This document shows, piece by piece, positions 6,470 to 33,178 of a stretch of 64,000 nucleotides of DNA. Below the pieces are notes generated by a model that worked only from the letters and a program-made list of their open reading frames with translations, searched no databases and was not told where the DNA came from. Origin of the DNA: an uncultured archaeon (GTDB lineage Archaea > Iainarchaeota > Iainarchaeia > Iainarchaeales > JAAZKV01); contig CAZOVD010000002.1 of NCBI GenBank assembly GCA_964583285.1, positions 2,940 to 66,939 of the forward strand. The letters are read 5' to 3'. Within the stretch, counting starts at the first letter, position 1. Each line of letters begins with the position of its first letter. The position numbers and the translations under genes were made by a program.

Positions 6470-6495
6470 TTTTTATCATTTATAAATATAATTTA
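6470..6495 (-). promoter_or_regulatory. late-type promoter motif copy 1
   Basis: Exact 18-mer tcatttataaatataatt (plus-strand text) at 6476-6493. On the - strand it reads AATTATATTTATAAATGA, about 40 nt upstream of ATG 6442. Confidence 0.6.
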
Positions 6496-6496
6496 A

Positions 6497-6982
6497 TTAA
6501 ATTTTTTGTGTATATTCAATCCTTAATTCTAATGTATTATCTTTAGTTATTTTATCAAATGTTGCTCTGCAATATGCAGTTCCAACTGTTGCTCCGGTTC
6601 CTGTACATAAAATTATTTCTGTTAAATCTGTTGATGTTGTTATTTGTGTAGAACTTAAATATCCTACAAAAGTGATTGTTTGAAAATCGTCTTCTGTAAA
6701 TTCTTCATATGTTTTATAAATATTTGAACCACCATCATAAATTACAGGTATTTCAAGTCCTGTATCTGTAACAGCTGGTGGTGTGGTTCCTATTCCTACA
6801 CCAAATGCTTGTAAATAATTTGTAGTGTCTTCTCCTGTTAATTTATCTCTTAATAGAGTTCTACCAATATTTAAAATCAAGTTATCTTTATCAACTAATA
6901 AATTCCAGTTATTTTCTCCAACTTTTCTTCCAAATATTTTTATATGTCCTTTTAACATTCCTAATTTTAAATCATCTTTCAT
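6497..6982 (-). CDS. tail/baseplate structural protein (unassigned)
   Basis: 161 aa; position in the tail module; SD 'aaaggaggaataa'. Confidence 0.35.
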   Translation of the reverse strand: MKDDLKLGMLKGHIKIFGRKVGENNWNLLVDKDNLILNIGRTLLRDKLTGEDTTNYLQAFGVGIGTTPPAVTDTGLEIPVIYDGGSNIYKTYEEFTEDDFQTITFVGYLSSTQITTSTDLTEIILCTGTGATVGTAYCRATFDKITKDNTLELRIEYTQKI

Positions 6983-6997
6983 ATTTATTCCTCCTTT

Positions 6998-9148
6998 TTA
7001 ATCACTAGGATTAGTTACTAAATTTCCTGAAAATTCACTTGGTATTGTTCCAAGTTTTGAAGTTCCAAGTATTCCTCCTAAACTATTTCCAAGTAAAAAT
7101 GATGTTGTAACATCTTCCCCCCATTCTGCTACACCCCAAACACCTAATAAATCATTGCCCCAAATTCCTGCTCCACCTGCCCAATTATATGTATCCCATA
7201 ATCCAAATGCATCATTATCCCATATTAATTGATTCCCTGTAATACTTCTAGTTCTTATTACAAGTTGTGCACTCGGATTATCAATTAATTCTAAATCATC
7301 TAAAAATTCAATTGCTTCAATTAAAACATCTGATTGTCCTTTTTCTTTTTCTTCAAGAGCATTAATTCTTTCATATAAATTATTTAAGTAATCTTCAACT
7401 GTATTTGGCAATGCTGATAACTTAAGAGTAGTATTTAATTTTCCTCCAATTAAAATACTTTTAGTACTTGTAACAACAAAAGTTTGTGGCGTTGAATAAT
7501 ATTTATCATTTATATATTGTACTGTTTCACCTACATCTATTAACGGATTTATTTTTATCTTACTTGTCCCCACTGGAATAGGGTCTTTATATCTTGATAC
7601 AGTTTGTCTTGCTATTGTTAGAGCATCATCTTTACTAAAAATATATTCATTTTCTATTTTACTTTCTCTTAATCCATAATTACTAATACTTTCAGTATCT
7701 TTATATGTTGCAGTAATTGGAACAGAATATGTATAATTTACAACAATATTATTTGTTCCAACTCCTGGTACAGAACCAGATTCAAAAATAATTTGTCTAT
7801 TTTTTTGGTCTGTTTTATAATCAAATGTTGTTCCAGTCATTCCTGTTTGATAACCTAATTGCTCTGTTCCACCAACAGTTATATAAGTATCTACAGGTTC
7901 ATATGTAAGTGTAAAAGTATCTGTAGAACCATTACCACTAAATTTTTCTTCCCAAGTAAATAATTGCCTTGCTCCATATACTGTTACTTTATTAATAAGA
8001 TTTGTATCATCATCATAAAACTCATCTGATAAAATATTATTTCCTCTAGTTAAGGTTACTCCAGAACTAATTGTTCCTTGAATACCAAAATTTAAATCTT
8101 TATTGATATCAACATAAAAATCATAATCTACTGGTCTTGCATTTGCTATTTTTTTAATTGCTTCATGGCAACTGACATTTTTGAATTGTACTGTTGTATA
8201 ATTATTAGTAAATTCTACTTTATCTGTAGTAAATCCATCTGTTTCATCATTATGCGGGTTTATTCTCATTTCATCTAAATAAAAATAACCAGAATCAGTT
8301 GATGCAACATCTATTGATAATCTTACATAATCATTATTAAACAATGAAACAGTTCCAATATCTGTTTTATTTGCCATATCAAATATTAAATAATTCCAAC
8401 CATTTACTAAAGTTGCTTCATTAGACATTTCATAATAATTAGAATTATCTTGTCCAATTCTAAGAGTTAATCCACTAACATCTGATGCATCTTCAATATA
8501 AAAGTATATTTGAATTCTATCTGTAGGTTGTAATTGATAACCATTGGTATAAGTTTTTTCTATATATCCTATTCCAGTACTAGCTGTTATTACTTTTAAA
8601 CAAGCTGTTCCAAATCTAGCATATAAATGATTATTCGCATCTGTTCCAGTTTCAGAACTAATAGTTGTTAGTATACTACTATCAGAAGTCCACCCAGTTG
8701 TTGCATCAAAACTATCTATAATAGTTCCTTTTAAGATATATTTATTAATAATATCTCTAACAATTATACTAAATTCTTTATCATTATATACTTGTGCTCT
8801 AACAAGAACCTGATTTAGATAAGTTGTATAATCACCACCAGTTATAGATAATTCAAATGCTTTTCCAAGAGTTCTTTCAACTGTTTCAATATATCCACCA
8901 AATATTTTTGCATTATCAGAAGTTCTAAATGCTTTTAATTCATCACCAGAACTAACAGTATTATAAAGAGTATTTGTTGGGTCACTTATTAATAAATTAA
9001 ATTTACCAGATAATTTAGTAAGATTTCTTTCCCAATCAAATTGTTTTACTCTTGTTAATGTAGACCCATTAATAGTTAAATAATATCTAGTACTAGAAAG
9101 TTCCCCGTATGTTGAACTATCATATAAGTCTATATCATATCCTGGCAT
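6998..9148 (-). CDS. large distal tail / baseplate hub-like structural protein
   Basis: 716 aa, one of the largest ORFs in the distal-tail gene run that follows the tape measure. C-terminal Trp/Gly-rich repeats 'WGNDLLGVWGVAEWG'. Confidence 0.5.
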   Translation of the reverse strand: MPGYDIDLYDSSTYGELSSTRYYLTINGSTLTRVKQFDWERNLTKLSGKFNLLISDPTNTLYNTVSSGDELKAFRTSDNAKIFGGYIETVERTLGKAFELSITGGDYTTYLNQVLVRAQVYNDKEFSIIVRDIINKYILKGTIIDSFDATTGWTSDSSILTTISSETGTDANNHLYARFGTACLKVITASTGIGYIEKTYTNGYQLQPTDRIQIYFYIEDASDVSGLTLRIGQDNSNYYEMSNEATLVNGWNYLIFDMANKTDIGTVSLFNNDYVRLSIDVASTDSGYFYLDEMRINPHNDETDGFTTDKVEFTNNYTTVQFKNVSCHEAIKKIANARPVDYDFYVDINKDLNFGIQGTISSGVTLTRGNNILSDEFYDDDTNLINKVTVYGARQLFTWEEKFSGNGSTDTFTLTYEPVDTYITVGGTEQLGYQTGMTGTTFDYKTDQKNRQIIFESGSVPGVGTNNIVVNYTYSVPITATYKDTESISNYGLRESKIENEYIFSKDDALTIARQTVSRYKDPIPVGTSKIKINPLIDVGETVQYINDKYYSTPQTFVVTSTKSILIGGKLNTTLKLSALPNTVEDYLNNLYERINALEEKEKGQSDVLIEAIEFLDDLELIDNPSAQLVIRTRSITGNQLIWDNDAFGLWDTYNWAGGAGIWGNDLLGVWGVAEWGEDVTTSFLLGNSLGGILGTSKLGTIPSEFSGNLVTNPSD

Positions 9149-9161
9149 TTATTAATCACTT

Positions 9162-9437: not shown

Positions 9438-9448
9438 ATTAAATCACC

Positions 9449-11811: not shown

Positions 11812-11812
11812 T

Positions 11813-13006: not shown

Positions 13007-13019
13007 TTTTAATCACCTT

Positions 13020-16980: not shown

Positions 16981-16982
16981 TT

Positions 16983-17708
16983 TTAACACACTCCATTATA
17001 CCATTGTTGAAATTGGAAAGTTAAAGATATTTCTCTTCTATTTAATCCAAAATCACTATCAAAAGGTATATCTGATACATTCGTTACTCTAGCTTTAATT
17101 AAACCATGTATTGTATTATTGTATCTAATATATCTTATTTTTTGATAAATATCATTTTCTATAAAATCTAATAACTTATCACCTGTATATTTAAACGAAT
17201 TAATAGTATATGAATCTGTATTTCTTGCCCATATACTTACTCTTGTATCAAAATCAATAAATTCACCTTGGTCTCCAACACCAGAAGGAACACTCCCTCC
17301 ACCTGTTCTTAAAAAACCAATTCTTGGAAGTTTTTTATTGTCTTCCACATTTGGTGTTCCTGGGTATATCCAATTTTCCCCATAATAATAAGTTACAGAA
17401 ATATTATCTGTTCCCGAAGTAGGAGCAGTAACAAAAGTAATACTTGGTTTTTCATTACCTCGTCCAAAATCTAAAGAATATTCTCTATTTAATTTTTGTT
17501 CTGTACTTGAAATAGATACAGAATCAATATACATTAATGCTTGCATATAATTATCTGTTATATCATTAGGTGGTGTTAATTCAAATTTAGTAATTATACC
17601 ATTTCCAGAAAAAGTTTCAGTTCTTGAAGTTCCTCTATTTGCAGGGTCCTCTAAGTATTTTCTTAATTCATTAATAAGTGCTGTTTTAAATTTATTTGAA
17701 TCTACCAT
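16983..17708 (-). CDS. tail terminator / neck protein candidate
   Basis: ATG 17708 follows 'caaggtggcgaaagaca'. The track start 17738 is a TTG. Call is by position, between the gp10-like and major tail genes. Confidence 0.4.
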   Translation of the reverse strand: MVDSNKFKTALINELRKYLEDPANRGTSRTETFSGNGIITKFELTPPNDITDNYMQALMYIDSVSISSTEQKLNREYSLDFGRGNEKPSITFVTAPTSGTDNISVTYYYGENWIYPGTPNVEDNKKLPRIGFLRTGGGSVPSGVGDQGEFIDFDTRVSIWARNTDSYTINSFKYTGDKLLDFIENDIYQKIRYIRYNNTIHGLIKARVTNVSDIPFDSDFGLNRREISLTFQFQQWYNGVC

Positions 17709-17774
17709 TGTCTTTCGCCACCTTGCGAATAAATGCAATCACCACCTCGCAATTACATTCTTTAAAAATATTTA

Positions 17775-17800
17775 TTTTTTATCATTTATAAATATAATTT
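17775..17800 (-). promoter_or_regulatory. late-type promoter motif copy 2
   Basis: Exact 18-mer tcatttataaatataatt at 17782-17799, overlapping the stop of the upstream gene. Confidence 0.55.
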
Positions 17801-18200
17801 AAAGTTCTTTATTCTTTGCTTTATTTAGTGTTAAATTAATAGCTGGTTCAACAAATGGAGACGCTTTAATACCTTTAACTTTATGCCCTTTAGAAAACCG
17901 TCTTTGGCCTTCTTGTATCCAAGAAAGTGCTTTTTTATATTTAGGAAAAATAGAATGGTCTTTTGTTCCAAATTCAATATATGCCGCATATTCAGCTTCT
18001 ATATGTATTTGGTAATCATGTTTACCTATTTTTTTATAAGAAATAGAATTAATTAAATTACCAGTTTTAATATGGCCTTGCACTCTAAGATTATTTTTCA
18101 TTTCAGTAACCATTCGTTTAGTTAGTTCTTCCATAAATAAATCTAGCCAATCATCAAATACTTTTTGTATTTCATCAATATTGTTTATATCTTTTTCCAT
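17799..18200 (-). CDS. HK97 gp10-like head-tail joining protein
   Basis: 'IKTGNLINSISYKK...EAEYAAYIEFGT' matches the gp10-family signature (TGxLxxSI ... YAxYxEFGT). Confidence 0.65.
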   Translation of the reverse strand: MEKDINNIDEIQKVFDDWLDLFMEELTKRMVTEMKNNLRVQGHIKTGNLINSISYKKIGKHDYQIHIEAEYAAYIEFGTKDHSIFPKYKKALSWIQEGQRRFSKGHKVKGIKASPFVEPAINLTLNKAKNKEL

Positions 18201-18598: not shown

Positions 18599-19351
18599 TC
18601 ACCTAATTCTTTGATTGTAATAATTAAACCTATTAACATCATCTGGATTATCTAAATTATCTCTTTTCGCAGGTTGTCTAATACTATTTGGAAATTGTGT
18701 TGCGCCACTATTGCCTTTCCATAATACAACCCTTCTTGGTTTGTATTTTCCTAATAATTCCATTTTTCTTTCAATTTGGTCTTTCATTAGGTCTTTAAAT
18801 GTATTATAATCTCTATTAATAGAAAAACCACTTGTTGATTGACTTGATACACCTCTTTTAAATGCTCTAGTCATTTGATATCTTATTGCATACTCCATTG
18901 CATAGCAATAATTTAATTCTTCTAATTCACTTGTTACTTGAGAATCCGTTATTGGGTATCTTGTCCATCTATAAGTAACATATATATTTGCTCCTGAAGT
19001 TGGGTATCCTGAGTTTAAAGTAAAATAGCCATCAATTAAATCTATTGATGCTACCTGAGCTGTAATATCGTTTTCAATTGTTCCGTCAGAATTAATTTCT
19101 TCAACTTTAATATCATCTTTATTAACAGTACCATCTAAATTATCATCTGCTAAATACTGATGAGAAAAATAATATCTGTCTTCCCCATCTACAGTTGTTT
19201 TACCTATATATTCACGTCTCCTTAAAATATAACATTCATCTCTTAAAGTTCGTGCACCTCTATTAATAAAATCTGTAATAATTGTATCACTTATTTCTGC
19301 TGTTGAAAAAGTACTATCTTGTCTAAATTTACTAATTGTTATATAAGCCAT
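18599..19351 (-). CDS. head-tail connector candidate
   Basis: 250 aa, first gene after late promoter copy 3. Positional inference. Confidence 0.35.
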   Translation of the reverse strand: MAYITISKFRQDSTFSTAEISDTIITDFINRGARTLRDECYILRRREYIGKTTVDGEDRYYFSHQYLADDNLDGTVNKDDIKVEEINSDGTIENDITAQVASIDLIDGYFTLNSGYPTSGANIYVTYRWTRYPITDSQVTSELEELNYCYAMEYAIRYQMTRAFKRGVSSQSTSGFSINRDYNTFKDLMKDQIERKMELLGKYKPRRVVLWKGNSGATQFPNSIRQPAKRDNLDNPDDVNRFNYYNQRIR

Positions 19352-19375
19352 TATTTCACCTTATTATAAAATTTT

Positions 19376-19402
19376 TATTTTTATCATTTATAAATATAAT
19401 TA
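19376..19402 (-). promoter_or_regulatory. late-type promoter motif copy 3
   Basis: Exact 18-mer at 19383-19400, about 40 nt upstream of ATG 19351. Leader carries 'aaggtgaaataATG'. Confidence 0.6.
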
Positions 19403-19403
19403 A

Positions 19404-19550
19404 CTATTTTTTATCAAAATTCTTAGTAATATCATAACTCAATAAAGCCAAACAACAACCAGCAAAAACGGCAGGCAAACCATGTATAAAATATAAATAA
19501 CTAATAAAAAATAAAAAAAGAATTAACCTAAAAATTAAATTAACATTCAT
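19404..19550 (-). CDS. small hydrophobic membrane peptide (48 aa)
   Basis: ATGA overlap with the upstream stop. MNVNLIFRLILFLFFISYLYFIHGLPAVFAGCCLALL... Below the track threshold. Confidence 0.4.
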   Translation of the reverse strand: MNVNLIFRLILFLFFISYLYFIHGLPAVFAGCCLALLSYDITKNFDKK

Positions 19551-22538: not shown

Positions 22539-22576
22539 TTATATATCATACTCCTTTCTTATTAATAAATATATTT

Positions 22577-25471
22577 TTACTTTTCAATATCAATTGTTAA
22601 AGTAAATTGATTCACCCCACTAATAGAATCTATATTAAAACATAAAACATCTCCTGCACTAACTGAAGTAGTCCAAGTTCCAAGACTTGTATCGCTATTC
22701 AAATCATTAGCACTAAGAGTTGGTTTTTCTGAACCAGTGATACTTTGTGCTGAACTAGTTGGTTTTGCCCCACTAGCTTTCCAAATATCAACAACAACAT
22801 CTCCAGCAGTTTTACTCACAATTCTCCAACCTTTAATAGTACAATCATAACCTATTACACCATATTGTTTAATTCCAGTTCCATTACCAGTATAATTAAA
22901 AGTCCAAGTATCTTTGCTAACAGCATTTAATTCATTTTGTAAATCTGTTTGGTCAGCAAGAGTTCCACTTATTGAACCCCAAGTAGCACTCCCAGTACTT
23001 CCAGCGGCATTAAGAGTATTTCCACTTAAACTTAAATTAGAACCAATAACTATTTCTTGAAAAACACCACTACCAGCACTATACCTTCCTAATAATACTT
23101 CATTAGTTGTAGCATCAACTAATTTACTAAGAGTAACATTAGAATTAGCTATCTTACTTGTAGTCACAGCATCATTAGCAATAGTTGTAGAAAAACTTCC
23201 TGTTCCAGTTCCAGTAACATCTCCAGTTAAAGTAATTGTTTGGTCGCCAGTGTTTGTGCCTGATAAGTTTGTAGCACTAATTGCTCCAGTAAATGTTGCA
23301 CCACTTAATTGAGCATAAGCAGTTAAGTCACTATCAACAACAACATCAGCAATAGCAACACCACTATCTTGAATGGTCTTTCCATTAACACCATCAAAAG
23401 TAACTATGTTATTATCAACACTACTCGCAGGTCCATTAACATCTCCACCACCAGCCGCATTAATTGCTTCTCTTACTGCTTGTTCAGTTGGAATATTCGT
23501 ATCAGTTCCTGGACTTCCAATTGTAGTAACCTTTGTTCCTTCAACATATCCACTAAGGTCTTGGTCACCTGTATTAGTTCCAGATAAATTATTTCCTGAA
23601 ATATCTCCAGTAACTTGTAATTCTCCTTGTTCATTAAAAAATGCTTGTTGAGTCCAACTGCTAATAGGATTACTTCCACTTGTTGCAGTTAAAAAAGTCA
23701 TTATTGCATTTCCACTAGTATCAGTTTGAAACTTTAATCTAGTAGCAGGTTTGCTTGTATCAATTCTATTCCATTGACTTCCAGTCCAAACAGCATTGCT
23801 TGTAATCTCAGAATTATCATTATCACTCTTATTAATACCTAATAAATCTTTAACACTAATTTCTCCTGTAAAATCAGCACCATCAAGTCTAGCATAAATA
23901 CCATCTAAATAAGTTCCTAAAGCACTAGTATCAATATCAACTTCAAGAGTTTCATCACTAGCATCATCTACTTCTGTTAAAGTAATATAATCACCAACAA
24001 CTAACTTTCCATTCAAATAACCAGCAGTAGTATCATTAGCACTAACCTTTACTAATTCATCAGTAATAGATAAAGTTTGATTAGTCCAATAACTACCATT
24101 ATATCTAAGAACTTGATTACTTGTAACACCACTAATAGTAACATCACTTAAATCACCAATACTTTCAGAATTAATATTAGCAATACTATTATCAGTAATA
24201 GTAAAATCAGGATAAGTTCCACTAATTGTTACATTAGTTCCACCAGTAAATGAAACTGTTTTATCAAAAAGATTTGTAGCACCTTCGCTAATATCATCAG
24301 TATCATCAACAGCTTTTTCAAAATATTCACTAAGTGTTTTTGTAGAATCTTTTAAAATTTTTCCAGTAGTCCCATCATATAAAGGTATAGCATTATCAGT
24401 TGCACTTGCAGGTCCAGTAACATCACCACCGCCACTAGCACTTATTGCTTCACGAACAGCTTGTTCACTAGGTACATTAGAATCACTACCTGGAGTTCCT
24501 ACTGTAGTAACTAAAGTACCTTGTATATAACTAGATAAATCTTGGTCGCCAGTATTAGTTCCACTAGTATTTCCAATAACAGTTTTTTCAGCATCTGTAA
24601 CATATCTTCTGTTAGTAGAATCATTAATATCAGCAGTAGTTGCATTAGCACCAGCAGTAACTAAACCATCAGCATCATAAGTAATCTTTGTTTTTGTACT
24701 CGCAGTAATAGGAGTATTTTTATCTAATTTATCATCTAACACATTTTGTAAATCTGTTTGGTCAGCAATATCTCCAGCAATTCCACCCCATGTAGCAGTT
24801 CCTGCAGCACTACTTGCATTTAAAACTCCAGCTGAAAAAGAAAGTCCAGTTCCAATTTGTATTTCTTGAGCATCACCACTAGAAACATCATACCTTCCTA
24901 ATAATCTTTCACCAGCAACATTTTGAAGTTTAGCATAAGTAATTGCATCATTTAAAACTTTGGCAGTTGTAACAGCATTGTTAGCAAGAGTAGTTGAAAT
25001 ACTTGTTGTTCCACTCCCAGTTATTGCTCCACTAAGAGTTATTGTTTCATTATTTGTTAAATAAGTATTTGAATCAAGTGAACCATCGCCCTTAACAAAA
25101 TCACTACTAGTTCCACCATCAGTCACAAAACTATTAGCCTCAATATTATTAGTAGTAACACTACCATTATCAGTCACATCTTGCAAATCTTGAGTTTCAG
25201 GAGTAACATTACCAAGAACAGTCCAATTAGTACCATTCCAAACAACTTCATCACCATCAACAAAACTCTGCCCAGTATTAGTATAAGTAACCCCAGCATC
25301 ATCAGTTACTGAAGCAAGAACACGATAAAACCAACCATTCTCAACACTTGCAATTAAAGGAAAATCAGTAGAAACACTAATAGTGCCCTTGAAAATAATA
25401 GGGTTAACAATACTTGTTCCACTTGTATCAATATCAAATTGGCCTGTGAAAGGATTAAATTTCAATGACAT
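22577..25471 (-). CDS. long fibre protein with large internal duplications
   Basis: 964 aa with N-terminus 'MSLKFNPFTGQFD'. Two repeat pairs: aa 143-247 with 745-848, and aa 302-376 with 629-703. Confidence 0.65.
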   Translation of the reverse strand: MSLKFNPFTGQFDIDTSGTSIVNPIIFKGTISVSTDFPLIASVENGWFYRVLASVTDDAGVTYTNTGQSFVDGDEVVWNGTNWTVLGNVTPETQDLQDVTDNGSVTTNNIEANSFVTDGGTSSDFVKGDGSLDSNTYLTNNETITLSGAITGSGTTSISTTLANNAVTTAKVLNDAITYAKLQNVAGERLLGRYDVSSGDAQEIQIGTGLSFSAGVLNASSAAGTATWGGIAGDIADQTDLQNVLDDKLDKNTPITASTKTKITYDADGLVTAGANATTADINDSTNRRYVTDAEKTVIGNTSGTNTGDQDLSSYIQGTLVTTVGTPGSDSNVPSEQAVREAISASGGGDVTGPASATDNAIPLYDGTTGKILKDSTKTLSEYFEKAVDDTDDISEGATNLFDKTVSFTGGTNVTISGTYPDFTITDNSIANINSESIGDLSDVTISGVTSNQVLRYNGSYWTNQTLSITDELVKVSANDTTAGYLNGKLVVGDYITLTEVDDASDETLEVDIDTSALGTYLDGIYARLDGADFTGEISVKDLLGINKSDNDNSEITSNAVWTGSQWNRIDTSKPATRLKFQTDTSGNAIMTFLTATSGSNPISSWTQQAFFNEQGELQVTGDISGNNLSGTNTGDQDLSGYVEGTKVTTIGSPGTDTNIPTEQAVREAINAAGGGDVNGPASSVDNNIVTFDGVNGKTIQDSGVAIADVVVDSDLTAYAQLSGATFTGAISATNLSGTNTGDQTITLTGDVTGTGTGSFSTTIANDAVTTSKIANSNVTLSKLVDATTNEVLLGRYSAGSGVFQEIVIGSNLSLSGNTLNAAGSTGSATWGSISGTLADQTDLQNELNAVSKDTWTFNYTGNGTGIKQYGVIGYDCTIKGWRIVSKTAGDVVVDIWKASGAKPTSSAQSITGSEKPTLSANDLNSDTSLGTWTTSVSAGDVLCFNIDSISGVNQFTLTIDIEK

Positions 25472-25764
25472 TATACCTTCTCCGCACTACTTAAATTATT
25501 TTTTGTTGAATCTGTATATGCTAAATTAATTGTAGCTACTGTTGTTCCAGAAGACCCACCTTGTTTAAAAACATATGATTCAGTTGTTGAACTTGGATAT
25601 GTTACAGAAACATAATCATAAATAATTCCATTTAATAATCCACCAACACCAACAGATAATGGATTATCTGAATTAATGGAATTACCATTTGAATCAACAT
25701 TTAAAACTTTTTGTGCATAATTAGTAAATCCATTTTCAGGTACTGGTATTTCTGCTTTAACCAT
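25471..25764 (-). CDS. hypothetical structural protein, leaderless candidate
   Basis: 97 aa. ATG lies 24 nt after the late TATA-like box with no SD. Confidence 0.45.
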   Translation of the reverse strand: MVKAEIPVPENGFTNYAQKVLNVDSNGNSINSDNPLSVGVGGLLNGIIYDYVSVTYPSSTTESYVFKQGGSSGTTVATINLAYTDSTKNNLSSAEKV

Positions 25765-25778
25765 AATAATAAAATTTA

Positions 25779-25805
25779 TTTTTTATCATTTATAAATATA
25801 ATTAA
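25779..25805 (-). promoter_or_regulatory. late-type promoter motif copy 4
   Basis: Exact 18-mer at 25786-25803. The TTTATAAA box ends 24 nt before ATG 25764. Confidence 0.6.
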
Positions 25806-25814
25806 TAAAAAAGT

Positions 25815-25856
25815 AGTATTAAAGAAGAGGAAAATAATAACCTCTTCTTTAATACT
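25815..25856 (-). terminator. strong hairpin plus U-tract after the major capsid gene
   Basis: Perfect 16-bp stem (25815-25830 with 25841-25856) and a 10-nt loop. On the - strand it is followed by ACUUUUUUAUU. Confidence 0.65.
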
Positions 25857-25871
25857 TTCAGTTTAATTTAT

Positions 25872-26840
25872 CTAGCTTGCTGCCATTACTACACCAGCAA
25901 CAGCTAATACAGATTGTATTCCAATTCCGTATGATTGTACTGCAAGTATTTCAGTATCTAAACTTCCTGAAACTCTTCCATCTACAACTTCAACATCTGT
26001 TTCTTTTACAAATGTTCCAAGTTCATTTGAATCAACTATTAAAGTTGTTCCACTTGTTACTTGTGATGTTACAACAATCTTCATACCTCTAAAGTATTCA
26101 GCTGTTGGGAACACTCTTGCTACTGCACCAGCATCTGCTACAGCATTTGAAATAACACCTCTTGATAGTGCTTCTTTGAAATCTGTATCTTTACTTAGTG
26201 CTGCATAGTCAGCAGGATTAACTACCAAATGTGTTGGTTTATAATCATTACCTTCTATAATAGCAATAGCATCAATTAGTTTATCATAACTAATTCTTGT
26301 ACTTGCTCCACCTGTTGCAACTCTATTTGCATTTCCTGCAGTTACTACAGCTTCAATTCCTGATATGATATCAGAGTCAATTTTTCTTGCAAGTGCTTTA
26401 CCAGCTCTTTTAGCTTCTAAAGCAATCATTGAAGTCATTCCTCTTTTCATCATTTCCCAAGTAATTTTACTTGCAGCAACTTTCTTTGTTGGAGTTACAG
26501 TTATTGAACTATATCCTACAGATGTATAAGAAATACTTCCACCTTCTGAAACTTCAGCAGCAGTTATTCTTGCATCTTTTGGTAGTTTAATTGCACCTTT
26601 TCCTCCACCATTCATTAAGTCATCATTAACTTGTAATAGTTCTAGTCCTGTTAAATTTGGTTCAACAGCTTCTCTAATTATTGTAGCCAAAGCAGTTGTA
26701 TACAGAGCACTAGCATTACTTGTTGATATATCTTCTTTAAATCTAATTGATTCTGCGTAACCTTTAGAAATTGAGTCTTTTAATAGAGCTTTTCCTACAG
26801 CTTCACATAATCTTGTTCCACTTTCTTCAAAGTATGCCAT
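25872..26840 (-). CDS. major capsid protein (HK97 fold)
   Basis: 322 aa directly after the protease and scaffold genes. Composition and pattern fit the Phage_capsid family ('YKPTHLVVNPADYAAL'). Confidence 0.8.
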   Translation of the reverse strand: MAYFEESGTRLCEAVGKALLKDSISKGYAESIRFKEDISTSNASALYTTALATIIREAVEPNLTGLELLQVNDDLMNGGGKGAIKLPKDARITAAEVSEGGSISYTSVGYSSITVTPTKKVAASKITWEMMKRGMTSMIALEAKRAGKALARKIDSDIISGIEAVVTAGNANRVATGGASTRISYDKLIDAIAIIEGNDYKPTHLVVNPADYAALSKDTDFKEALSRGVISNAVADAGAVARVFPTAEYFRGMKIVVTSQVTSGTTLIVDSNELGTFVKETDVEVVDGRVSGSLDTEILAVQSYGIGIQSVLAVAGVVMAAS

Positions 26841-26841
26841 G

Positions 26842-27486
26842 TTAATACCTCCCTACATTTTTAGCATATTCTTTCATCATTTGTTCAATAGTTGCACCAT
26901 CTTCTTTCAAAGTTGACACACTACCAATAACAACTCTTCTTCCTAATAAACTTTCATTTAATTTTTGAACATTATTTAAAGGTTCTTTAGGAATTGCTTC
27001 TTCTGATTCTTCTTCTGTTTTATTTGTTGAATCTTGTGATATATCTTTATTTAATAGACCACCATCAACATCAGATTTAGCACCATAACTTGGGCCAGAT
27101 GGATTATCGCCTTCAAAACCAACAGCATCTTCTTCCATTACTTTAGGTTTTGTTGGGTCAATTTCTGGTTCATCATTAGCTTCTTCCATTTCTGTTGATT
27201 CTTCAGCTTCTAATTTAGAAAGTCTTGCTTCAATTCCTTCTAATTTAGCCATAACTTGATTCAAAACATCAGAATTATCATTTACTTCTTCTGTTAAAGC
27301 TTTTGCTTTGTCCAAAGGTTCAGTTGGTTCAGCATCACTAGCTGGTGCATCTACTTTTGATACTACAGCAGGTTCAGCCATATCTTTTTTAAGAATTCCA
27401 CCTTCATTTGTATCGGCTTGTTCTTTCTTAACTTCTTCTTCGTCTTCAACTACTTGCTCAACAAAATATTTTTTTGTCTTAGCCAT
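26842..27486 (-). CDS. scaffolding protein
   Basis: 214 aa, highly acidic with a coiled coil ('LSKLEAEESTEMEEANDE'). Lies between the protease and capsid genes. Confidence 0.65.
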   Translation of the reverse strand: MAKTKKYFVEQVVEDEEEVKKEQADTNEGGILKKDMAEPAVVSKVDAPASDAEPTEPLDKAKALTEEVNDNSDVLNQVMAKLEGIEARLSKLEAEESTEMEEANDEPEIDPTKPKVMEEDAVGFEGDNPSGPSYGAKSDVDGGLLNKDISQDSTNKTEEESEEAIPKEPLNNVQKLNESLLGRRVVIGSVSTLKEDGATIEQMMKEYAKNVGRY

Positions 27487-27501
27487 AAAATGCCCTCCTT
27501 T

Positions 27502-27520
27502 TCATTTTATAAATATAATT
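27502..27520 (-). promoter_or_regulatory. late-type motif variant (one extra T)
   Basis: tcattttataaatataatt overlaps the protease stop. It is only about 20 nt from ATG 27486, which has a strong SD, so function is uncertain. Confidence 0.3.
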
Positions 27521-28400
27521 ATACTTGACATGCTTTAATCACTTCAAGTATTTCCTCTAATTCTTTTTTTGTTGGTTCAACATCTTTTCTAATTGTTTTT
27601 GTTAATGCTGGGCCACCAACTAATGTTCCTGCATTTATTGTTGATATATCTTCTTTTTTTTGTTCATCTTCTGTTTTAATTTCTTCTTTTATTATTTCAT
27701 CTTTTACTGGTTCATCTTCAACTTTTATTTCTTCTTCAACACCATCATCTAAAACATAATTAATATTTCCACCTTCTCTTGTTTTAGTATGAACTTTTAA
27801 TTTATTCTTTTTAATAATATTTTCAAAAAAATCTTCATCTTTCTTTTCAATAGACGCTGTAACTAATTTTTCTTTCCCTATATGAGATAGTTTTAAAGCT
27901 TCTGCCATATTAATTGTTGAATCAGCATAACCAGGAATAGTAACAATACTAATTTCTGCCCAATCATTTGGAAACGCTCTTGTATATTGTTTTCCATCAA
28001 TTGATTCTTCGTGTGAAACTTCATCAACTAATGCTTGAATTGAAACATTATTAATATCTCCTCTTTTAATTTTTCTAACTAAATCTGTTTCTTCAGGGTC
28101 AATATTTCCTCTATATTTTAAAATTGGTCCTTCCATCCATACTTTTTCAATATGCCCCACTGGCAATTTTGCTTCATCATGGTTTAAAAGCATTGGTCTT
28201 CCTTCAAGTTTTTTATGTGAATTCATTACAGAATTATAATCATACAAAATCTTATTTCTTGTAGGTTTAGTTGTATCAAGTGCATCTCCTTCAATTATAA
28301 CACCATCAACTTTATTAGTTTCTGGATTAATACTTTCTTTTAAAACATAACCATTAACTGGCTGAAAAACAGTTTCTTTAAAAACAATTCTATTGGACAT
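27519..28400 (-). CDS. prohead maturation protease (HK97 gp4-like)
   Basis: 'RPMLLNHDEAKLPVGHIEKVW' resembles the prohead-protease signature. Position is portal-protease-scaffold-capsid. Confidence 0.7.
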   Translation of the reverse strand: MSNRIVFKETVFQPVNGYVLKESINPETNKVDGVIIEGDALDTTKPTRNKILYDYNSVMNSHKKLEGRPMLLNHDEAKLPVGHIEKVWMEGPILKYRGNIDPEETDLVRKIKRGDINNVSIQALVDEVSHEESIDGKQYTRAFPNDWAEISIVTIPGYADSTINMAEALKLSHIGKEKLVTASIEKKDEDFFENIIKKNKLKVHTKTREGGNINYVLDDGVEEEIKVEDEPVKDEIIKEEIKTEDEQKKEDISTINAGTLVGGPALTKTIRKDVEPTKKELEEILEVIKACQV

Positions 28401-28621
28401 TATTTACTCACCTCAACCCGCATGTATTCAATAGGAGTGATTCCTCTCTGAGAATTTGCTCTTTCTTTATACCTATAATAAACATCCCCATTTTTCTTCA
28501 TTTGGAGAATTTTTTTATTTACTCTAGCTATATTCTCATTTAATTCATCTGCGAGTTGAGGCACAGTTTTCCATTCATCTGAAATACTATTTAAAATTTC
28601 ATCATAAATGTTTGTAATCAT
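28400..28621 (-). CDS. small winged-helix DNA-binding protein
   Basis: 'EWKTVPQLADELNENIARVNKKILQMKKNGDV' is HTH-like. One-base overlap with the protease start (the two genes share base 28400). Confidence 0.45.
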   Translation of the reverse strand: MITNIYDEILNSISDEWKTVPQLADELNENIARVNKKILQMKKNGDVYYRYKERANSQRGITPIEYMRVEVSK

Positions 28622-28698
28622 TAATTAAATTATTATATTAAGTAGTATATAAATGTATAATATAAATAAAGCAAAAAACAATATATAATAGGGTATTT

Positions 28699-28959
28699 TT
28701 ATAATGATTTCTTTAAATCATTTAAATTATTATATATCTTAACCTTGTTATTTATGATGACGCCGTAGGTATTTGATTTATCATCAAAATATATATCCTT
28801 ATTTCCTATTTTATCAATTATTTTATAATTCATTGAAAATTCTTCCTTGTTCCTATTTAAAATTTTAAGAATTAACCAAGAAACAAATAATATCTTAGCA
28901 ATACTCCATGAAGGATTATTGCTCCTTATAAATGCTTTAATTGTTTCAATATTAACCAT
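28699..28959 (-). CDS. small membrane-anchored protein
   Basis: TM segment 'WSIAKILFVSWLILKIL'. One-base overlap with the portal stop (TAATG junction; shared base 28959). Confidence 0.45.
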   Translation of the reverse strand: MVNIETIKAFIRSNNPSWSIAKILFVSWLILKILNRNKEEFSMNYKIIDKIGNKDIYFDDKSNTYGVIINNKVKIYNNLNDLKKSL

Positions 28960-30398: not shown

Positions 30399-30400
30399 AT

Positions 30401-31125: not shown

Positions 31126-32589
31126 TTATAAACCCATCCATAAATCTAACATTACTTCATCGTCAACTTGTTTCTTTTGTTGGTCATTTAATTCATCATA
31201 TGATTTATTAAACATTTTTTTAGCAGTTAATTCAAGACTTCTTCCTTCTTCTTTTAAAGATTCTTTTAATTCTAATTCATTTGCCTTAAACCATCCAATT
31301 AATCCTGTTTGTGGTTGTGCTGTCACTCTAATTTCATCGTTTTGAATTTGATAAACATATCCAACTTTTCCGCTAGGTGTAATTACTTTGTCTCCACCAC
31401 CAATCCATTTACCATTTTTATCAACAATCTTTTTAGCATAAGAGCCTTCTTTTAAAGATTCTTTTTTACTAATATTTCTTGAACCACATTTAGAACATTT
31501 ATCATTATCATTGCCTTGAAATTGGTTTCCACAATCTAAACATTTTTGAATTGGATTTCTTTCAAAATCATCTTCATTATATTCTTTTTTATATCCTTCG
31601 CCCAATTCCTTTTGTAAGTCATTCAATTCAACTTGAACCTCTTTCTTTTCATCAGGAGTACATTGAGCATAATTTTTCTTAAATAAGAATTGTGCCATTT
31701 CATCTGGTGTTCTTGCATACTTTTCTGTTTTTTGCGGGTCAGCAACTAATATTTTCCATTCTTCATCTGGGCCGTCACCTTCAGCTTCTTTAGGATATAA
31801 TGTTTCTCCTTCTTCCTTATCATAATAATTTGGGTTTTCTTCTAAATGGTCCATTACTAAATTTTTAATAGCTTCATCATCTAAAGTTGGGTGTTCTGAT
31901 TTTTCTATATCAAAACCTTTAGAAAAATTATCATCAAGTGCTTCCACTTTAAAAGTATTTTCATCATCTTGTGAAATAACAGCTTCAATTCCTTTTAATT
32001 TTAATTCAGCATCTATTTTTGCTTTATTCTCTGGAGTACAATCAGCATATCTTTTTTTATCAAACATTGAATCTGCTAATTGGTCGCGTGCTTGAGTTAA
32101 AGAAATAGTTGCTTCACTTCTTAATTGTTTTTGCATTAAAGAATCAAACTTATATTGGTCATCAGAATTTAAATCATCATATTTTTTCCCACCAAAATAT
32201 TTTTTTGATATTATATCTTCTGCAGAACTTTCTTTATAACTTTCAGCATTTCTAGCCATATCTATTGCATCGCCAGAGTCTAAATTATATAAAGATACTA
32301 ATTGTTTAACAATTTCTTGTTCAGATTTTCCTTGCTTTTTTAATACTGTTGCTGTTTGCATAGCAGCATTAAATTGAGCTTGATTTACTTCTTTTAAACT
32401 TTCTTTTGTTGTTCTTTTTTTTGCTTCATCATACTTCTTTTGAAGTATATCTCTTTTATTCTTCCAAGCGTCATAATCTTCTGACTTTGGATTTAAAATT
32501 GATAATAATTCATCAATTTTATCTATTTCTGCTTTTATCTGAAGAGCCTCATCATAATCCCCAGATACTAATTCTTTTAAACTAACCAT
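31126..32589 (-). CDS. modular SLKE-motif protein with zinc ribbon (polyprotein-like)
   Basis: SLKE at aa 3-6, 64-67, 378-381 and 443-446. Four 'KxYxxxxxxxKxxxDxE' modules. Zinc ribbon 'CLDCGN...CSKCGS'. Confidence 0.5.
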   Translation of the reverse strand: MVSLKELVSGDYDEALQIKAEIDKIDELLSILNPKSEDYDAWKNKRDILQKKYDEAKKRTTKESLKEVNQAQFNAAMQTATVLKKQGKSEQEIVKQLVSLYNLDSGDAIDMARNAESYKESSAEDIISKKYFGGKKYDDLNSDDQYKFDSLMQKQLRSEATISLTQARDQLADSMFDKKRYADCTPENKAKIDAELKLKGIEAVISQDDENTFKVEALDDNFSKGFDIEKSEHPTLDDEAIKNLVMDHLEENPNYYDKEEGETLYPKEAEGDGPDEEWKILVADPQKTEKYARTPDEMAQFLFKKNYAQCTPDEKKEVQVELNDLQKELGEGYKKEYNEDDFERNPIQKCLDCGNQFQGNDNDKCSKCGSRNISKKESLKEGSYAKKIVDKNGKWIGGGDKVITPSGKVGYVYQIQNDEIRVTAQPQTGLIGWFKANELELKESLKEEGRSLELTAKKMFNKSYDELNDQQKKQVDDEVMLDLWMGL

Positions 32590-32595
32590 CTATAA

Positions 32596-32802
32596 TCACC
32601 TTACATTTCTATTTATTTCTCCTAAAAGTTGTTTAATTTTAAAGTAAGTATTTGGGTCTTTCGTCCTATCTATTTCAATAGCTAATTGTTTTAATTCATC
32701 AGCTTGCTGTGCTAATTGATTAGGATTAGCAACCCCAGCTTCTTTAAATGTAAAATTATTTTTAAGATATTCTCTCATATATTCTTTTAATCGTTTATTC
32801 AT
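32596..32802 (-). CDS. hypothetical protein (N-terminus MNKRLKEY)
   Basis: 68 aa. Its N-terminus is similar to that of 30401-30664. Confidence 0.45.
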   Translation of the reverse strand: MNKRLKEYMREYLKNNFTFKEAGVANPNQLAQQADELKQLAIEIDRTKDPNTYFKIKQLLGEINRNVR

Positions 32803-33122
32803 CTCTTATCGCCTTTTTTCCAATCATAAAATAATACAAAGTTATTTTCTCTAAGAACATTAATAAAATCAACTAAAACAAAATATGCACCACCAAACCC
32901 GAGAATTCCAATTATTGAAAATTCAATGCCATTATGGAGGATAGATATTATTAAATTAATAAATATACCATAGACTACAATTTCAATACAATTAATCAAT
33001 AAAGAGTTAATTATATCTTTTTTCTGTACTAAGTATATCTTTAAGCTTTTTGTCCAAGCAGAGACTTTTTTCTTATAAACTTCCAATAATTGGAATCTTT
33101 CCCAGATTTGTTTCATTTGCAC
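32799..33122 (-). CDS. membrane protein, first gene of the late block
   Basis: Two TM segments ('VVYGIFINLIISIL', 'IIGILGFGGAYFVLV'). Alternative ATG at 33116. Confidence 0.45.
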   Translation of the reverse strand: MQMKQIWERFQLLEVYKKKVSAWTKSLKIYLVQKKDIINSLLINCIEIVVYGIFINLIISILHNGIEFSIIGILGFGGAYFVLVDFINVLRENNFVLFYDWKKGDKR

Positions 33123-33159
33123 TCAACTCTTACAAACTATAATTATTATTAAATTTTAA

Positions 33160-33178
33160 TCATTTATAAATATAATTT
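33160..33178 (-). promoter_or_regulatory. late-type promoter motif copy 5
   Basis: Exact 18-mer tcatttataaatataatt at 33160-33177, overlapping the stop of 33177-33365. Confidence 0.6.

What the first reader, a model, noticed from the sequence alone, without database searches (positions are those of the whole stretch)
6470..33178. Late-type promoter family: an invariant 18-mer AATTATATTTATAAATGA in front of structural operons
The string tcatttataaatataatt (plus-strand text, with genes on the minus strand) occurs identically five times: 6476-6493, 17782-17799, 19383-19400, 25786-25803 and 33160-33177. Each copy follows a T-run (2 to 7 T's, shortest at 33158-33159). Each sits immediately after the stop of the upstream gene and 24-90 nt before the next start. 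A sixth copy with one inserted T lies at 27502-27520. All copies are confined to the head, tail and fibre block, and none lies in the early or replication blocks. The shared core ATATTTA(T/A)AAA links it to the early motif, but the flanks differ (TGATAAAAA versus GGTTTT). This suggests a temporal switch mediated by a factor that reads the flanks. The many small zinc-ribbon and winged-helix proteins, including a TFB-ribbon-like one, are candidate factors.
Basis: seen in the sequence. Interest (0 to 1): 0.6.

Follow-up and report, generated by a model that had tools for sequence, protein, structure and literature searches.

The report
Late-gene promoter repeats of a virus
An identical 18-30 base sequence repeated six times in front of the head, tail and fibre gene groups of an uncultured tailed virus from activated sludge is most likely a set of archaeal-style (TATA-box) late promoters, a useful but fairly ordinary finding.

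Summary
The 18-mer occurs five times exactly, against 0 expected by chance. One coordinate is off by one (19384-19401). A sixth copy with one extra base lies at 27502-27520. All six copies lie on the coding strand in intergenic gaps of the structural block.

A second class (ATATATTTAAAAA+GGTTTT/TATTTT, 11 sites) marks the small-gene and replication blocks. In both classes the 8-mer TTTA(T/A)AAA lies 22-26 nt upstream of either an SD-less ATG or a purine just before a Shine-Dalgarno site. That is archaeal BRE/TATA/initiator geometry. No conserved -10 box is present, and sigma-70-like sites are not enriched.

The virus carries an archaeal-type PCNA, an RFC-like clamp loader and a Hef/XPF nuclease. 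Relatives carry their own TATA-containing intergenic repeats at orthologous positions, and oligo-T terminators.

A 1-9% diverged strain keeps all five exact 18-mers. The only motif substitution falls in the imperfect sixth copy.

No RNA data exist, so start sites and early/late timing remain inferred. No viral TFB, TBP or sigma factor was found.

The closest known case is halovirus HF2, whose two classes of intergenic repeats were shown experimentally to be promoters. Verdict: a real promoter family and a new member of a known kind.

The parts
6463..6493 (-). Late promoter copy 1: AATTATATTTATAAATGATAAAAAAATAAAT. TATA-like 8-mer at 6479-6486. Predicted start near G 6454, 12 nt before the ATG at 6442 (fibre-like genes, down to the end of the block).
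   Evidence: No substitution across 6414-6496 in the variant strain, while the flanks are 4.4% diverged.
17770..17799 (-). Late promoter copy 2. It overlaps the upstream stop codon by 1 nt. TATA 17785-17792. Predicted start near G 17760. The 5'UTR hairpin begins there. Heads the tail operon (251-aa protein, tube, tape measure and others).
   Evidence: In the variant strain 17749-17827 is unchanged, and a 33-nt unitig (17770-17802) sits at 2.6x depth.
19373..19401 (-). Late promoter copy 3. TATA 19387-19394. Predicted start near A 19362, 11 nt before the ATG at 19351. Heads three head-tail joining genes.
   Evidence: 19337-19403 is unchanged in the variant strain, while the flanks are about 7.5% diverged.
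25774..25803 (-). Late promoter copy 4. TATA 25789-25796. The ATG at 25764 lies exactly 24 nt after the TATA 8-mer with no Shine-Dalgarno site, so a leaderless mRNA is predicted. Heads the 97-aa, 964-aa and 843-aa fibre genes.
   Evidence: Unchanged in the variant strain.
27502..27520 (-). Imperfect copy 5 (one extra base), directly before the scaffold and major capsid genes. The ATG at 27486 is only 19 nt after the TATA 8-mer and a Shine-Dalgarno site lies between them. Its geometry is atypical.
   Evidence: It carries the only motif substitution in the variant strain (27517 A>C).
33160..33177 (-). Late promoter copy 6, at the boundary between the small-gene block and the structural block. 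TATA 33163-33170. Predicted start near A 33138. Heads the portal/protease operon.
   Evidence: Unchanged in the variant strain. Orthologous promoters lie before the same gene in L029 and L027.
25807..25856 (-). Terminator after the major capsid gene: a 16-bp hairpin (25815-25856) followed by T6 (25807-25812), just upstream of copy 4.
   Evidence: -21.8 kcal/mol, z -5.3.
19506..19519 (-). Oligo-T terminator (T7-A-T6 on the gene strand) ending the fibre operon, about 100 nt upstream of copy 3.
   Evidence: The same T6-7/A/T6 tracts recur after capsid genes of relatives.
34464..42135 (-). Early-class promoters on the minus strand: ATATATTTAAAAA + GGTTTT/TATTTT/CCTTTT, with TATA 8-mers ending at 42130, 41628, 40139, 39463, 37751 and 34477.
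   Evidence: 13 matches against 0.48 expected.
44959..62421 (+). Early-class promoters on the plus strand (replication and DNA-modification block), with TATA 8-mers starting at 44964, 49078, 51377, 60682 and 62408.
28646..28661 (-). Extra, non-class TATA element (CATTTATATA), 24 nt before the SD-less ATG at 28621 of a 73-aa winged-helix-like protein. It is preceded by T6 at 28673-28678.
   Evidence: weak ArsR-like hit.
22559..22576 (-). Degenerate late-like element AAATATATTTATTAATAA, 23 nt before the ATG at 22538 (843-aa fibre gene).

Best explanation
The six copies are transcription promoters for the structural ('late') genes of a tailed virus whose host is probably an archaeon.

Proposed mechanism, read on the gene strand:
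- TTTATAAA is the TATA box, bound by host TBP.
- The AATTATA just upstream takes the place of the BRE, read by TFB, and sets the direction on an otherwise palindromic TATA box.
- RNA polymerase starts about 24 nt downstream of the 8-mer.
- The product is either a leaderless mRNA (gene 25471-25764) or an mRNA whose short leader begins just before the Shine-Dalgarno site.

The copies split the 30-kb co-directional structural block into six units. Two of these units are closed by terminators: a hairpin plus T6 after the capsid gene, and T7-A-T6 after the fibre genes.

A second promoter class has the same core geometry but a T-rich block (GGTTTTT/TATTTTT) instead of the A-rich block (TGATAAAAAATAAAT) between the TATA box and the start site. 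It serves the small-gene and replication blocks.

Shown:
- the sequences, their positions, orientation and spacing;
- conservation between strains;
- analogous repeats in relatives.

Inferred:
- promoter activity and start sites;
- the host domain;
- that the block downstream of the TATA box sets class-specific timing, through a viral or host regulator that binds there or through ease of melting.
For: (1) Statistics and placement. Five exact copies against 0 expected. The core has 19 matches against 3.4 expected, all on the local coding strand. Late and early variants are fully separated by genome block.

(2) Geometry.
- In 5 of 6 late sites and all 11 early sites, 22-26 nt after TTTAWAAA there is either an SD-less ATG (42100, 44996, 25764) or a purine just before the SD.
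- Pooled with relatives, TATA-to-ATG distances for SD-less genes cluster at 21-24 nt. For SD-led genes they cluster at 29-45 nt.
- In relatives with 43-47% GC (L049, L050) the distances are 21, 22, 23, 23, 23, 29, 29 and 30 nt, with no -10-like box.

(3) Sigma-70-like sites are not enriched: 128 found against 129.7+-12.8 in shuffles.

(4) Archaeal-type replication proteins.
- A profile of the clamp family hits archaeal PCNAs best (E 7e-19). No T4 gp45 appears among the 60 best of 100 matches.
- The clamp loader matches the archaeal RFC small-subunit family (NCBIfam E 1e-58) and P. furiosus RFCS (PDB E 3e-42).
- A Hef/XPF-like nuclease matches at E 2e-16.

(5) Relatives carry their own TATA-containing intergenic repeats.
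- L029 24-mer x2; L033 35-mer x2; L035 and L037 21-22-mer x2; L039 20-mer x2; L046 24-mer x2.
- Orthologous positions: L029 has one after the capsid terminator and one before the homologue of gene 32799-33122. L027 has one before that same gene.

(6) Oligo-T tracts follow highly expressed genes in the window and in relatives.

(7) A strain 1-9% diverged keeps all five 18-mers.
- About 260 nt of stop-to-start intergenic DNA at these sites carries 2 substitutions, where about 9 would be expected.
- The only motif change is in the imperfect copy 5.
- Assemblies of that strain break at the repeat.

(8) Experimental precedent: the two classes of intergenic repeats of halovirus HF2 are promoters, with a TATA box at -26. 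One class II repeat (IR12c) drives the 35-kb late morphogenesis transcript (PMC8707807).
Against: - No transcript data exist. No RNA run holds the sequence, so promoter activity, start sites and timing are all inferred.
- The host is unknown. Capsid relatives have been binned both with an Asgard archaeon and with a CPR bacterium.
- The clamp loader is about as similar to gp44 of T4-like phages (34% identity, E 1e-37 to 1e-39; phrog_168 E 9e-68). The order clamp / loader / small loader subunit is T4-like.
- Copy 5, before the most highly expressed genes, does not fit the 24-nt spacing.
- The element upstream of the TATA box is A/T-rich but is not a textbook purine-rich BRE.
- My choice of the start purine near +25 is partly circular.
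- AT-rich DNA (28% GC) yields many TATA-like strings by chance.
Confidence: 0.68

Rival explanations
1. T4-style late promoters in a bacteriophage. TATAAATG (7 of 8 matches to the T4 late consensus TATAAATA; own knowledge) would act as a -10 element read by host RNA polymerase carrying a phage late sigma. Activation might come from the phage sliding clamp. Transcripts would start 6-7 nt downstream.
For: The motif contains TATAAATG. The virus encodes a clamp, a gp44-like loader (phrog_168 E 9e-68; 34% identity to gp44 of T4-like phages) and a gp62-like small subunit in T4 order. It also encodes a DenV-like glycosylase. Copy 5 fits this geometry better, because the start would fall just before its SD site.
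Against: The clamp is PCNA-type, not gp45-type. No gp55-, gp33- or sigma-like protein was found with Pfam or PHROGs. Conservation extends over 24-30 nt, including 10 nt upstream of the 8-mer. The early class and the relatives' repeats use TTTAAAAA or TTTAAATA with the same spacing. SD-less genes would be left with 15-18-nt leaders that have no ribosome-binding site, whereas they sit exactly at the archaeal leaderless distance.
Confidence: 0.1
2. Promoters for a virus-encoded RNA polymerase (T7-, N4- or phiKZ-like). This would explain the unusual invariance over 18-30 nt.
For: Invariant promoters of 20-30 nt are typical of phage-encoded polymerases (own knowledge). About 5 kb of the 69-kb contig lies outside the window, and the terminase is also missing from the window.
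Against: No RNA polymerase domain was found in the window. The only hit is a chance-level Rpb1 match, E 0.014, in a 112-aa protein. Both classes share a host-like TATA core with the relatives, and the relatives' repeats differ from one genome to the next.
Confidence: 0.05
3. The repeat is not itself a promoter. It could be an operator for a DNA-binding regulator (the 10-bp palindrome ATTTATAAAT would suit a dimer). It could be a terminator for antisense transcription (a T5-T7 run on the opposite strand). It could be a recombination or module-boundary repeat.
For: The motif holds a perfect 10-bp palindrome and is followed by an A-run, which is a T-run on the other strand. In the variant strain a 1013-nt insertion lies directly upstream of copy 4, and homology ends 38 nt upstream of copy 3. 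Module junctions therefore lie next to the repeats.
Against: Orientation is strictly co-directional with the genes. The distance to start codons is fixed. The core is shared with the second class, which sits in front of nearly every early operon. These roles also do not exclude promoter function.
Confidence: 0.1

Closest known systems
Intergenic repeats (class I, 58 bp; class II, 29 bp) of halovirus HF2 and other Haloferacalesvirus (Russ, Pfeiffer and Dyall-Smith 2021, PMC8707807)
   Same: A tailed archaeal virus with two classes of near-identical intergenic repeats. Each carries an AT-rich TATA box about 26 nt before the start site. Conservation extends beyond the TATA box into the start-site region. 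Position is conserved among related viruses. One class II repeat heads the long late morphogenesis transcript.
   Different: There is no sequence similarity. HF2 is GC-rich and halophilic with 9 repeats, whereas this genome is 28% GC with 6 + 11 sites. Here the late class is multi-copy and splits the structural block into six units. HF2 drives its structural block from one promoter. The HF2 repeats were tested by reporter assay, primer extension and mutagenesis. Nothing has been tested here.
Canonical archaeal BRE/TATA/Inr promoters (own knowledge: box A TTTAWATA centred near -26, purine-rich BRE upstream, pyrimidine-purine at -1/+1, frequent leaderless mRNAs)
   Same: An 8-bp A/T box lies 22-26 nt before SD-less ATGs or before a purine preceding the SD site. 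No -10 or -35 elements are present. Oligo-T terminators are present.
   Different: Cellular promoters are degenerate, whereas these are invariant over 18-30 nt. The upstream element AATTATA is not a typical purine-rich BRE.
Bacteriophage T4 late promoters (TATAAATA; gp55, gp33, gp45 clamp; own knowledge)
   Same: A short A/T-rich late-gene motif (7 of 8 identical) sits in front of structural operons of a virus that encodes its own clamp and clamp loader.
   Different: The clamp is PCNA-type. No gp55 or gp33 was found. Conservation is much longer. The spacing fits a -26 element rather than a -10 element.
T7-type promoters of phage-encoded RNA polymerases (own knowledge)
   Same: Multiple near-identical promoters of about 20-30 bp spread along the genome, in classes that differ in timing.
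   Different: No viral polymerase gene was found, and the core resembles a host TATA box.

Membership tests
Archaeal BRE/TATA promoter | A/T-rich 8-bp TATA box centred about 26-27 nt upstream of the transcription start | tested here: inconclusive
   Start sites are not mapped. A proxy is met: the 8-mer lies 22-24 nt before SD-less ATGs (42100, 44996, 25764, 28621) and 22-26 nt before a purine preceding the SD site. The same distances cluster in relatives. Copy 5 has only 19 nt.
Archaeal BRE/TATA promoter | Purine-rich BRE directly upstream of the TATA box, read by TFB | tested here: inconclusive
   The upstream 7 nt are conserved: AATTATA in the late class, A(A/C)ATATA in the early class. AATTA recurs in the relatives' repeats. 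The sequence is A/T-rich rather than the textbook purine-rich consensus.
Archaeal BRE/TATA promoter | The host is an archaeon (transcription by TBP, TFB and archaeal RNAP) | tested here: inconclusive
   For: archaeal-type PCNA, RFC small-subunit family, Hef/XPF, oligo-T terminators, and no excess of sigma-70-like sites. Against or ambiguous: the loader is equally gp44-like, and relatives were binned both to Hodarchaeales and to Moranbacteria. There is no CRISPR or provirus link; the genome-contig scan found nothing.
Archaeal BRE/TATA promoter | Promoter activity with the archaeal basal machinery | not testable with these tools
   No RNA runs hold the sequence. In vitro transcription or a reporter assay is needed.
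Virus promoter-bearing intergenic repeats (HF2 type) | Near-identical repeats confined to intergenic gaps, co-oriented with downstream genes, in at least two sequence classes | tested here: met
Virus promoter-bearing intergenic repeats (HF2 type) | Repeats and their genomic positions conserved among related viruses | tested here: met
   A variant strain keeps all five 18-mers. Promoters at orthologous positions occur in L029 and L027. The relatives' repeat sequences differ from those of the window.
Virus promoter-bearing intergenic repeats (HF2 type) | Experimentally shown promoter activity and mapped start sites | not testable with these tools
   None available.
T4-type late promoter | TATAAATA at -10, with no other conserved element | tested here: not met
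   TATAAATG matches 7 of 8, but conservation spans 24-30 nt, including 10 nt upstream. Relatives use TTTAAATA.
T4-type late promoter | Virus encodes gp55-type late sigma and gp33 co-activator | tested here: not met
   No hit in Pfam or PHROGs scans of about 60 window proteins. Highly diverged homologues, or genes in the unseen 5 kb, cannot be excluded.
T4-type late promoter | gp45-type sliding clamp and gp44/62 loader | tested here: inconclusive
   The loader is gp44-like, a gp62-like subunit follows it, and the gene order is T4-like. The clamp, however, is PCNA-type.
Phage-encoded RNA polymerase promoter | Virus encodes its own RNA polymerase | tested here: not met
   None in the window. About 5 kb of the contig was not seen.

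The most novel reading that the evidence does not exclude
The invariant 15-nt A-rich block between the TATA box and the start site (TGATAAAAAATAAAT) may be read by a virus-encoded factor. The T-rich block at the same place in the early class may be read in the same way. Candidates are the many small zinc-ribbon or winged-helix proteins, for example the 73-aa protein at 28400-28621, which has its own TATA element. Such a factor would redirect the host TBP/TFB/RNAP from early to late promoters. This would be an archaeal-virus counterpart of phage promoter-switching systems, possibly coupled to replication through the viral PCNA. The pattern of identity within a genome and divergence between genomes (window against L029, L033, L039) would then reflect co-evolution of the factor and its site.
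Probability: 0.2. Interest if true: 0.7.

Novelty: new member of a known kind. Interest (0 to 1): 0.4.

Why it matters
Temporal control of transcription is well understood for bacteriophages. It is hardly studied for tailed archaeal viruses, and not at all for uncultured ones from non-extreme habitats.

A clean two-class promoter map (6 late and 11 early sites, with terminators) has several uses:
- It gives operon structure, predicted start sites and leaderless genes for a 69-kb virus with no cultured relative.
- It provides a sequence-based argument that this widespread capsid lineage infects archaea.
- It offers compact, strong and probably orthogonal promoter parts.
- It defines a simple test, swapping the 15-nt block downstream of the TATA box, of how an archaeal virus might switch from early to late genes.

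Tried and rejected
- Megablast of the structural block against GenBank phages: no match.
- tRNA and Rfam scans of the window and of relatives: nothing.
- Exact scans of IMG/VR for the late 18-mer and the early 17-mer, and of JGI metagenomes for the late 24-mer: only single-copy chance hits in unrelated contigs, several of them giant-virus or GC-rich.
- Genome (GTDB) scan with a capsid profile to find proviruses or host-binned contigs: no relative found.
- Tail-tube scan of IMG/VR: nothing.
- RNA-run search: none.
- Host inference from named homologues: weak. The closest named RFC is from an uncultured Methanobrevibacter, at 46% identity over 69% of the query. The XPF search returned only a near-identical copy of the query. 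Capsid tblastn against GenBank phages gave only 24-27% hits to actinophage and Leuconostoc phage capsids.
- The transglutaminase-like protein 3353-4222 was considered as a pseudomurein endoisopeptidase. It has no PDB, NCBIfam or PHROGs support, so the idea was dropped.
- Enrichment of TTTAWAWA in the relatives' intergenic DNA is 4.8-fold. It is confounded by AT-richness and was given little weight.
- The excess of A-runs over T-runs on the sense strand is confounded by codon usage.
- A first narrow read-laying run gave no coverage for 27250-27800. A wider call showed that the strain does cover this region. I therefore dropped an earlier idea that the head module had been replaced.


Full report
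**1. Observation**

The plus-strand 18-mer TCATTTATAAATATAATT occurs exactly five times: at 6476, 17782, 19384, 25786 and 33160. No dinucleotide-preserving shuffle contained any copy. A sixth copy with one extra T is at 27502-27520.

The genes between about 2.6 and 42.1 kb lie on the minus strand. On that strand the motif reads AATTATATTTATAAATGA. In four copies identity continues as TAAAAA(A)(A)TAAAT, which gives about 30 nt in all.

Five copies begin within 3 nt of the upstream stop codon or overlap it. The copy at 25786 follows the capsid-gene stop by 68 nt. Those 68 nt hold a strong hairpin (-21.8 kcal/mol, z -5.3) followed by T6. The next start codons lie 16-73 nt downstream of the motif.

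**2. What the genome is**

The window is 28% GC. The near-identical source sequence is in an activated-sludge metagenome run.

The minus-strand block carries these structural genes:
- HK97-type major capsid protein (25872-26840)
- scaffold protein (assigned by position, not by a family hit)
- S78 prohead protease
- portal protein
- tail tube protein
- tape measure protein (assigned by position, not by a family hit)
- beta-helix and DUF5907 fibre proteins

The plus-strand block carries these replication and modification genes:
- SNF2 helicase
- sliding clamp
- RFC-like clamp loader
- a 7-deazaguanine DNA-modification cluster
- PolB
- ERCC4/Hef-type nuclease

No GenBank phage is close in DNA. 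Capsid similarity to GenBank phages is at most 27%. Capsid relatives at 35-73% identity are common in metagenomes.

**3. A second motif class and a common geometry**

The shared core ATATTTAWAAA has 19 matches against 3.4 expected. Every match lies on the local coding strand.

- The T-variant gives the six late sites plus one intragenic match at 6713-6723. All of them lie at or below 33173.
- The A-variant gives eleven intergenic sites in the small-gene block (34.5-42.1 kb) and the replication block (44.9-62.4 kb), plus one intragenic match at 36298-36308. At the eleven intergenic sites it is extended to ATATATTTAAAAA + GGTTTT/TATTTT (13 matches against 0.48 expected).

I aligned the sites on the 8-mer TTTA(T/A)AAA. 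In all eleven early sites and five of the six late sites, one of two things follows 22-26 nt after the 8-mer:
- an ATG with no Shine-Dalgarno site (42100, 44996, 25764), or
- a purine directly in front of the Shine-Dalgarno site, typically ...TAT|GAAAGGAG.

What is conserved is the block from about -35 to -10 relative to that point. The -10 region is only loosely A/T-rich. This is the layout of archaeal BRE/TATA/initiator promoters, not of sigma-70 promoters. Sigma-70-like sites are no more frequent than in shuffles (128 against 129.7+-12.8).

**4. Relatives**

I pooled the window with 21 non-redundant related loci.
- For genes without a Shine-Dalgarno site, distances from TTTAWAWA to the ATG cluster at 21-24 nt.
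- For genes with one, they cluster at 29-45 nt.

In distant relatives of 43-47% GC (L049, L050) chance A/T strings are rare. There the element T(G/T)A(A/T)TATTTTTAAATA sits 21, 22, 23, 23, 23, 29, 29 and 30 nt before start codons. No -10-like box is present.

Several relatives carry their own duplicated intergenic elements built around the same core:
- L029: AGAAAATATATTTAAATAGAAAAA, twice
- L033: a 35-mer, twice
- L035 and L037: TTAAATTATTTTTATATATTA, twice
- L039: AATTATATTTAAATAATACA, twice
- L046: a 24-mer, twice

The two L029 copies sit at orthologous positions. One follows the capsid terminator, like window copy 4. The other precedes the homologue of gene 32799-33122, like window copy 6. 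L027 has AATTATATTTAAGTATGATAAAAAAT before the same gene.

Tandem oligo-T tracts (T6-7 A T6 ...) recur after capsid genes of relatives. They also occur at 19506-19519 in the window. Some come with short hairpins and some without. Oligo-T tracts alone suffice for archaeal termination (own knowledge).

**5. Strain-level conservation**

Runs X2-X4 hold a strain that is 1-9% diverged in the coding DNA around these sites.
- All five exact 18-mers are unchanged in that strain.
- The substitution-free stretches are 6414-6496, 17749-17827 and 19337-19403. The coding DNA around them differs by 3.5-7.5%.
- Copy 6 is unchanged, in a region that is only 1.3% diverged.
- Over the stop-to-start gaps at the five sites (about 260 nt) I count 2 substitutions. 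About 9 would be expected at the flanking rate. This test is post hoc.
- The only change inside a motif is 27517 A>C, in the imperfect copy 5.
- The assemblies of that strain break at the repeat. A 33-nt unitig (17770-17802) has 2.6 times the flanking depth, so several copies are identical over at least 31 nt there too.
- The strain has a 1013-nt insertion between the capsid stop and copy 4. Homology ends 38 nt upstream of copy 3. Module junctions therefore lie next to the repeats.

**6. Host domain**

A profile built from 55 relatives of the clamp matches archaeal PCNAs best:
- P. furiosus, E 7e-19
- T. kodakarensis, A. fulgidus and H. volcanii next
- eukaryotic PCNAs after those
- no T4 gp45 among the 60 best of 100 matches

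The clamp loader matches the archaeal RFC small-subunit family (E 1e-58). It also matches P. furiosus and A. fulgidus RFCS structures (E about 1e-42). The closest named cellular homologue is from an uncultured Methanobrevibacter, at 46% identity over 69% of the query. A Hef/XPF-type nuclease and a NucS-like domain are present.

The loader evidence is ambiguous on its own. It is equally similar to gp44 of T4-like phages (34% identity; phrog_168 E 9e-68). It is followed by a gp62-like subunit in T4 order. Capsid relatives have been binned both to a Hodarchaeales MAG and to a Moranbacteria MAG.

I put the probability of an archaeal host at roughly 0.8. The main grounds are the PCNA, the promoter geometry and the terminators.

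**7. Mechanism and its limits**

The most likely reading is as follows.
- Host TBP binds TTTATAAA.
- TFB reads the upstream AATTATA. This fixes the direction on a palindromic TATA box (ATTTATAAAT is a perfect 10-bp palindrome).
- Transcription starts about 24 nt downstream.

The six copies re-initiate transcription along a 30-kb co-directional block, and two of the units end at terminators.

The early and late classes differ in three places:
- one base just upstream of the core (AT|ATATTTA against TT|ATATTTA);
- one base inside the TATA box;
- above all, the 15 nt downstream of it, which are T-rich in the early class and A-rich in the late class.

That downstream region is where archaeal repressors and the TFB/TFE/RNAP melting contacts act (own knowledge). 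It is the obvious place for class-specific control.

No viral TFB, TBP, sigma, gp55 or gp33 was detected. Many small zinc-ribbon proteins and one winged-helix-like protein remain unassigned.

Copy 5, in front of the scaffold and capsid genes, has only 19 nt between the 8-mer and the ATG. A Shine-Dalgarno site lies in between, and this copy is the one that varies between strains. It may be weaker, or it may work differently.

With no RNA data, promoter activity, start sites and the early/late timing all remain inferences.

**8. Comparison with what is known, and novelty**

The closest known case is halovirus HF2. Its two classes of intergenic repeats were shown to be promoters by reporter assay, primer extension and mutagenesis. 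They have a TATA box at -26 and essential conserved sequence around the start site. One class II repeat (IR12c) drives the 35-kb late morphogenesis transcript. The repeats are conserved in position within the genus (PMC8707807).

The present family has no sequence similarity to the HF2 repeats. It lies in a very AT-rich, non-halophilic, uncultured lineage, and its late class is multi-copy. It is therefore a new member of a known kind.

The T4 late promoter resemblance (TATAAATG against TATAAATA) is noted. It fails on the extent of conservation, on the clamp type and on the absence of gp55 and gp33.

Noticed in passing
window 39300-39445 (minus strand): The early-class promoter at 39456-39466 is followed by about 140 nt with no ORF start. 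This stretch folds into two strong hairpins (MFE -37.5 kcal/mol, z -4.4) before gene 38938-39297. It may be a structured leader or a small RNA. There is no Rfam match.
   Followed up: partly
window 57193-57517 (plus strand): The PolB reading frame is open from about 57193 and already encodes the exonuclease motif ILIYDLET. It contains no ATG, GTG or TTG before the listed GTG at 57517. A Shine-Dalgarno site AGGAGGGG lies at about 57203-57210. This suggests a non-canonical start codon (ATA or ATT) or some other unusual initiation.
   Followed up: partly
window 49131-51238 (plus strand): A PCNA-type clamp, a gp44/RFC-like loader and a gp62-like small subunit (phrog_225, E 4e-4) lie in the same order as T4 genes 45-44-62. 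The module mixes an archaeal-type clamp with a T4-like layout. A DenV-like pyrimidine-dimer glycosylase is at 40943-41374.
   Followed up: partly
window 51424-57202 (plus strand): A complete-looking 7-deazaguanine DNA-modification cluster: QueD, QueE, a PRTase-like protein, FolE, QueC, a class-II amidotransferase, a QueF-like protein, an acetyltransferase and a TGT/DpdA-like transglycosylase. Most assignments are from reading the translations. Only the TGT-like protein and the PRTase-like protein have family hits.
   Followed up: no
window 25803-25888, variant strain in runs X2 and X3: The related strain has 1013 extra bases between the capsid-gene stop and late promoter copy 4. They replace the 84 nt that hold the terminator hairpin. 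Upstream of copy 3, homology ends at 19439. Gene-content differences therefore sit next to the promoter repeats.
   Followed up: partly
L035:700-800, L037:6204-6300, L039:603-700, L033:3830-3930: In four relatives one copy of the promoter repeat is followed by a long hairpin. Its stem sequences differ between genomes but stay complementary, and the loop is GGGTT(T/C)(A/G)A-like. Neither a tRNA scan nor Rfam finds anything there. It may be a conserved 5' leader structure or a small RNA.
   Followed up: partly
window 28400-28699 (minus strand): A 73-aa winged-helix-like protein (weak ArsR hit, E 0.011) sits inside the late portal/protease operon. It has its own T6 tract, a TATA element (TTTATATA) and an SD-less ATG exactly 24 nt downstream. 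It is a self-contained unit and a candidate regulator.
   Followed up: partly
window 17708-17760 (minus strand): The predicted 5'UTR of the tail operon folds into a hairpin that begins at the predicted start site (z -3.4). It contains a duplicated GCGAGGTGG / GCAAGGTGGCG element. The variant strain has a G>A change in the first of the two.
   Followed up: no
whole window; L029:1-1017: No large terminase gene is present in the 64-kb window (tblastn with the relatives' TerL finds nothing). In relative L029 TerL lies directly upstream of the orthologue of late promoter copy 6. The gene is presumably in the 5 kb or so of the contig outside the window.
   Followed up: partly
window 43015-43032: A perfect 7-bp GC-rich hairpin with T-runs on both strands lies between the convergent genes 42171-43007 (+) and 43047-43733 (-). 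It is a likely bidirectional terminator. The 550-nt AT-rich gap at 43734-44286, with many short TATATA repeats, may hold divergent promoters or the replication origin.
   Followed up: no
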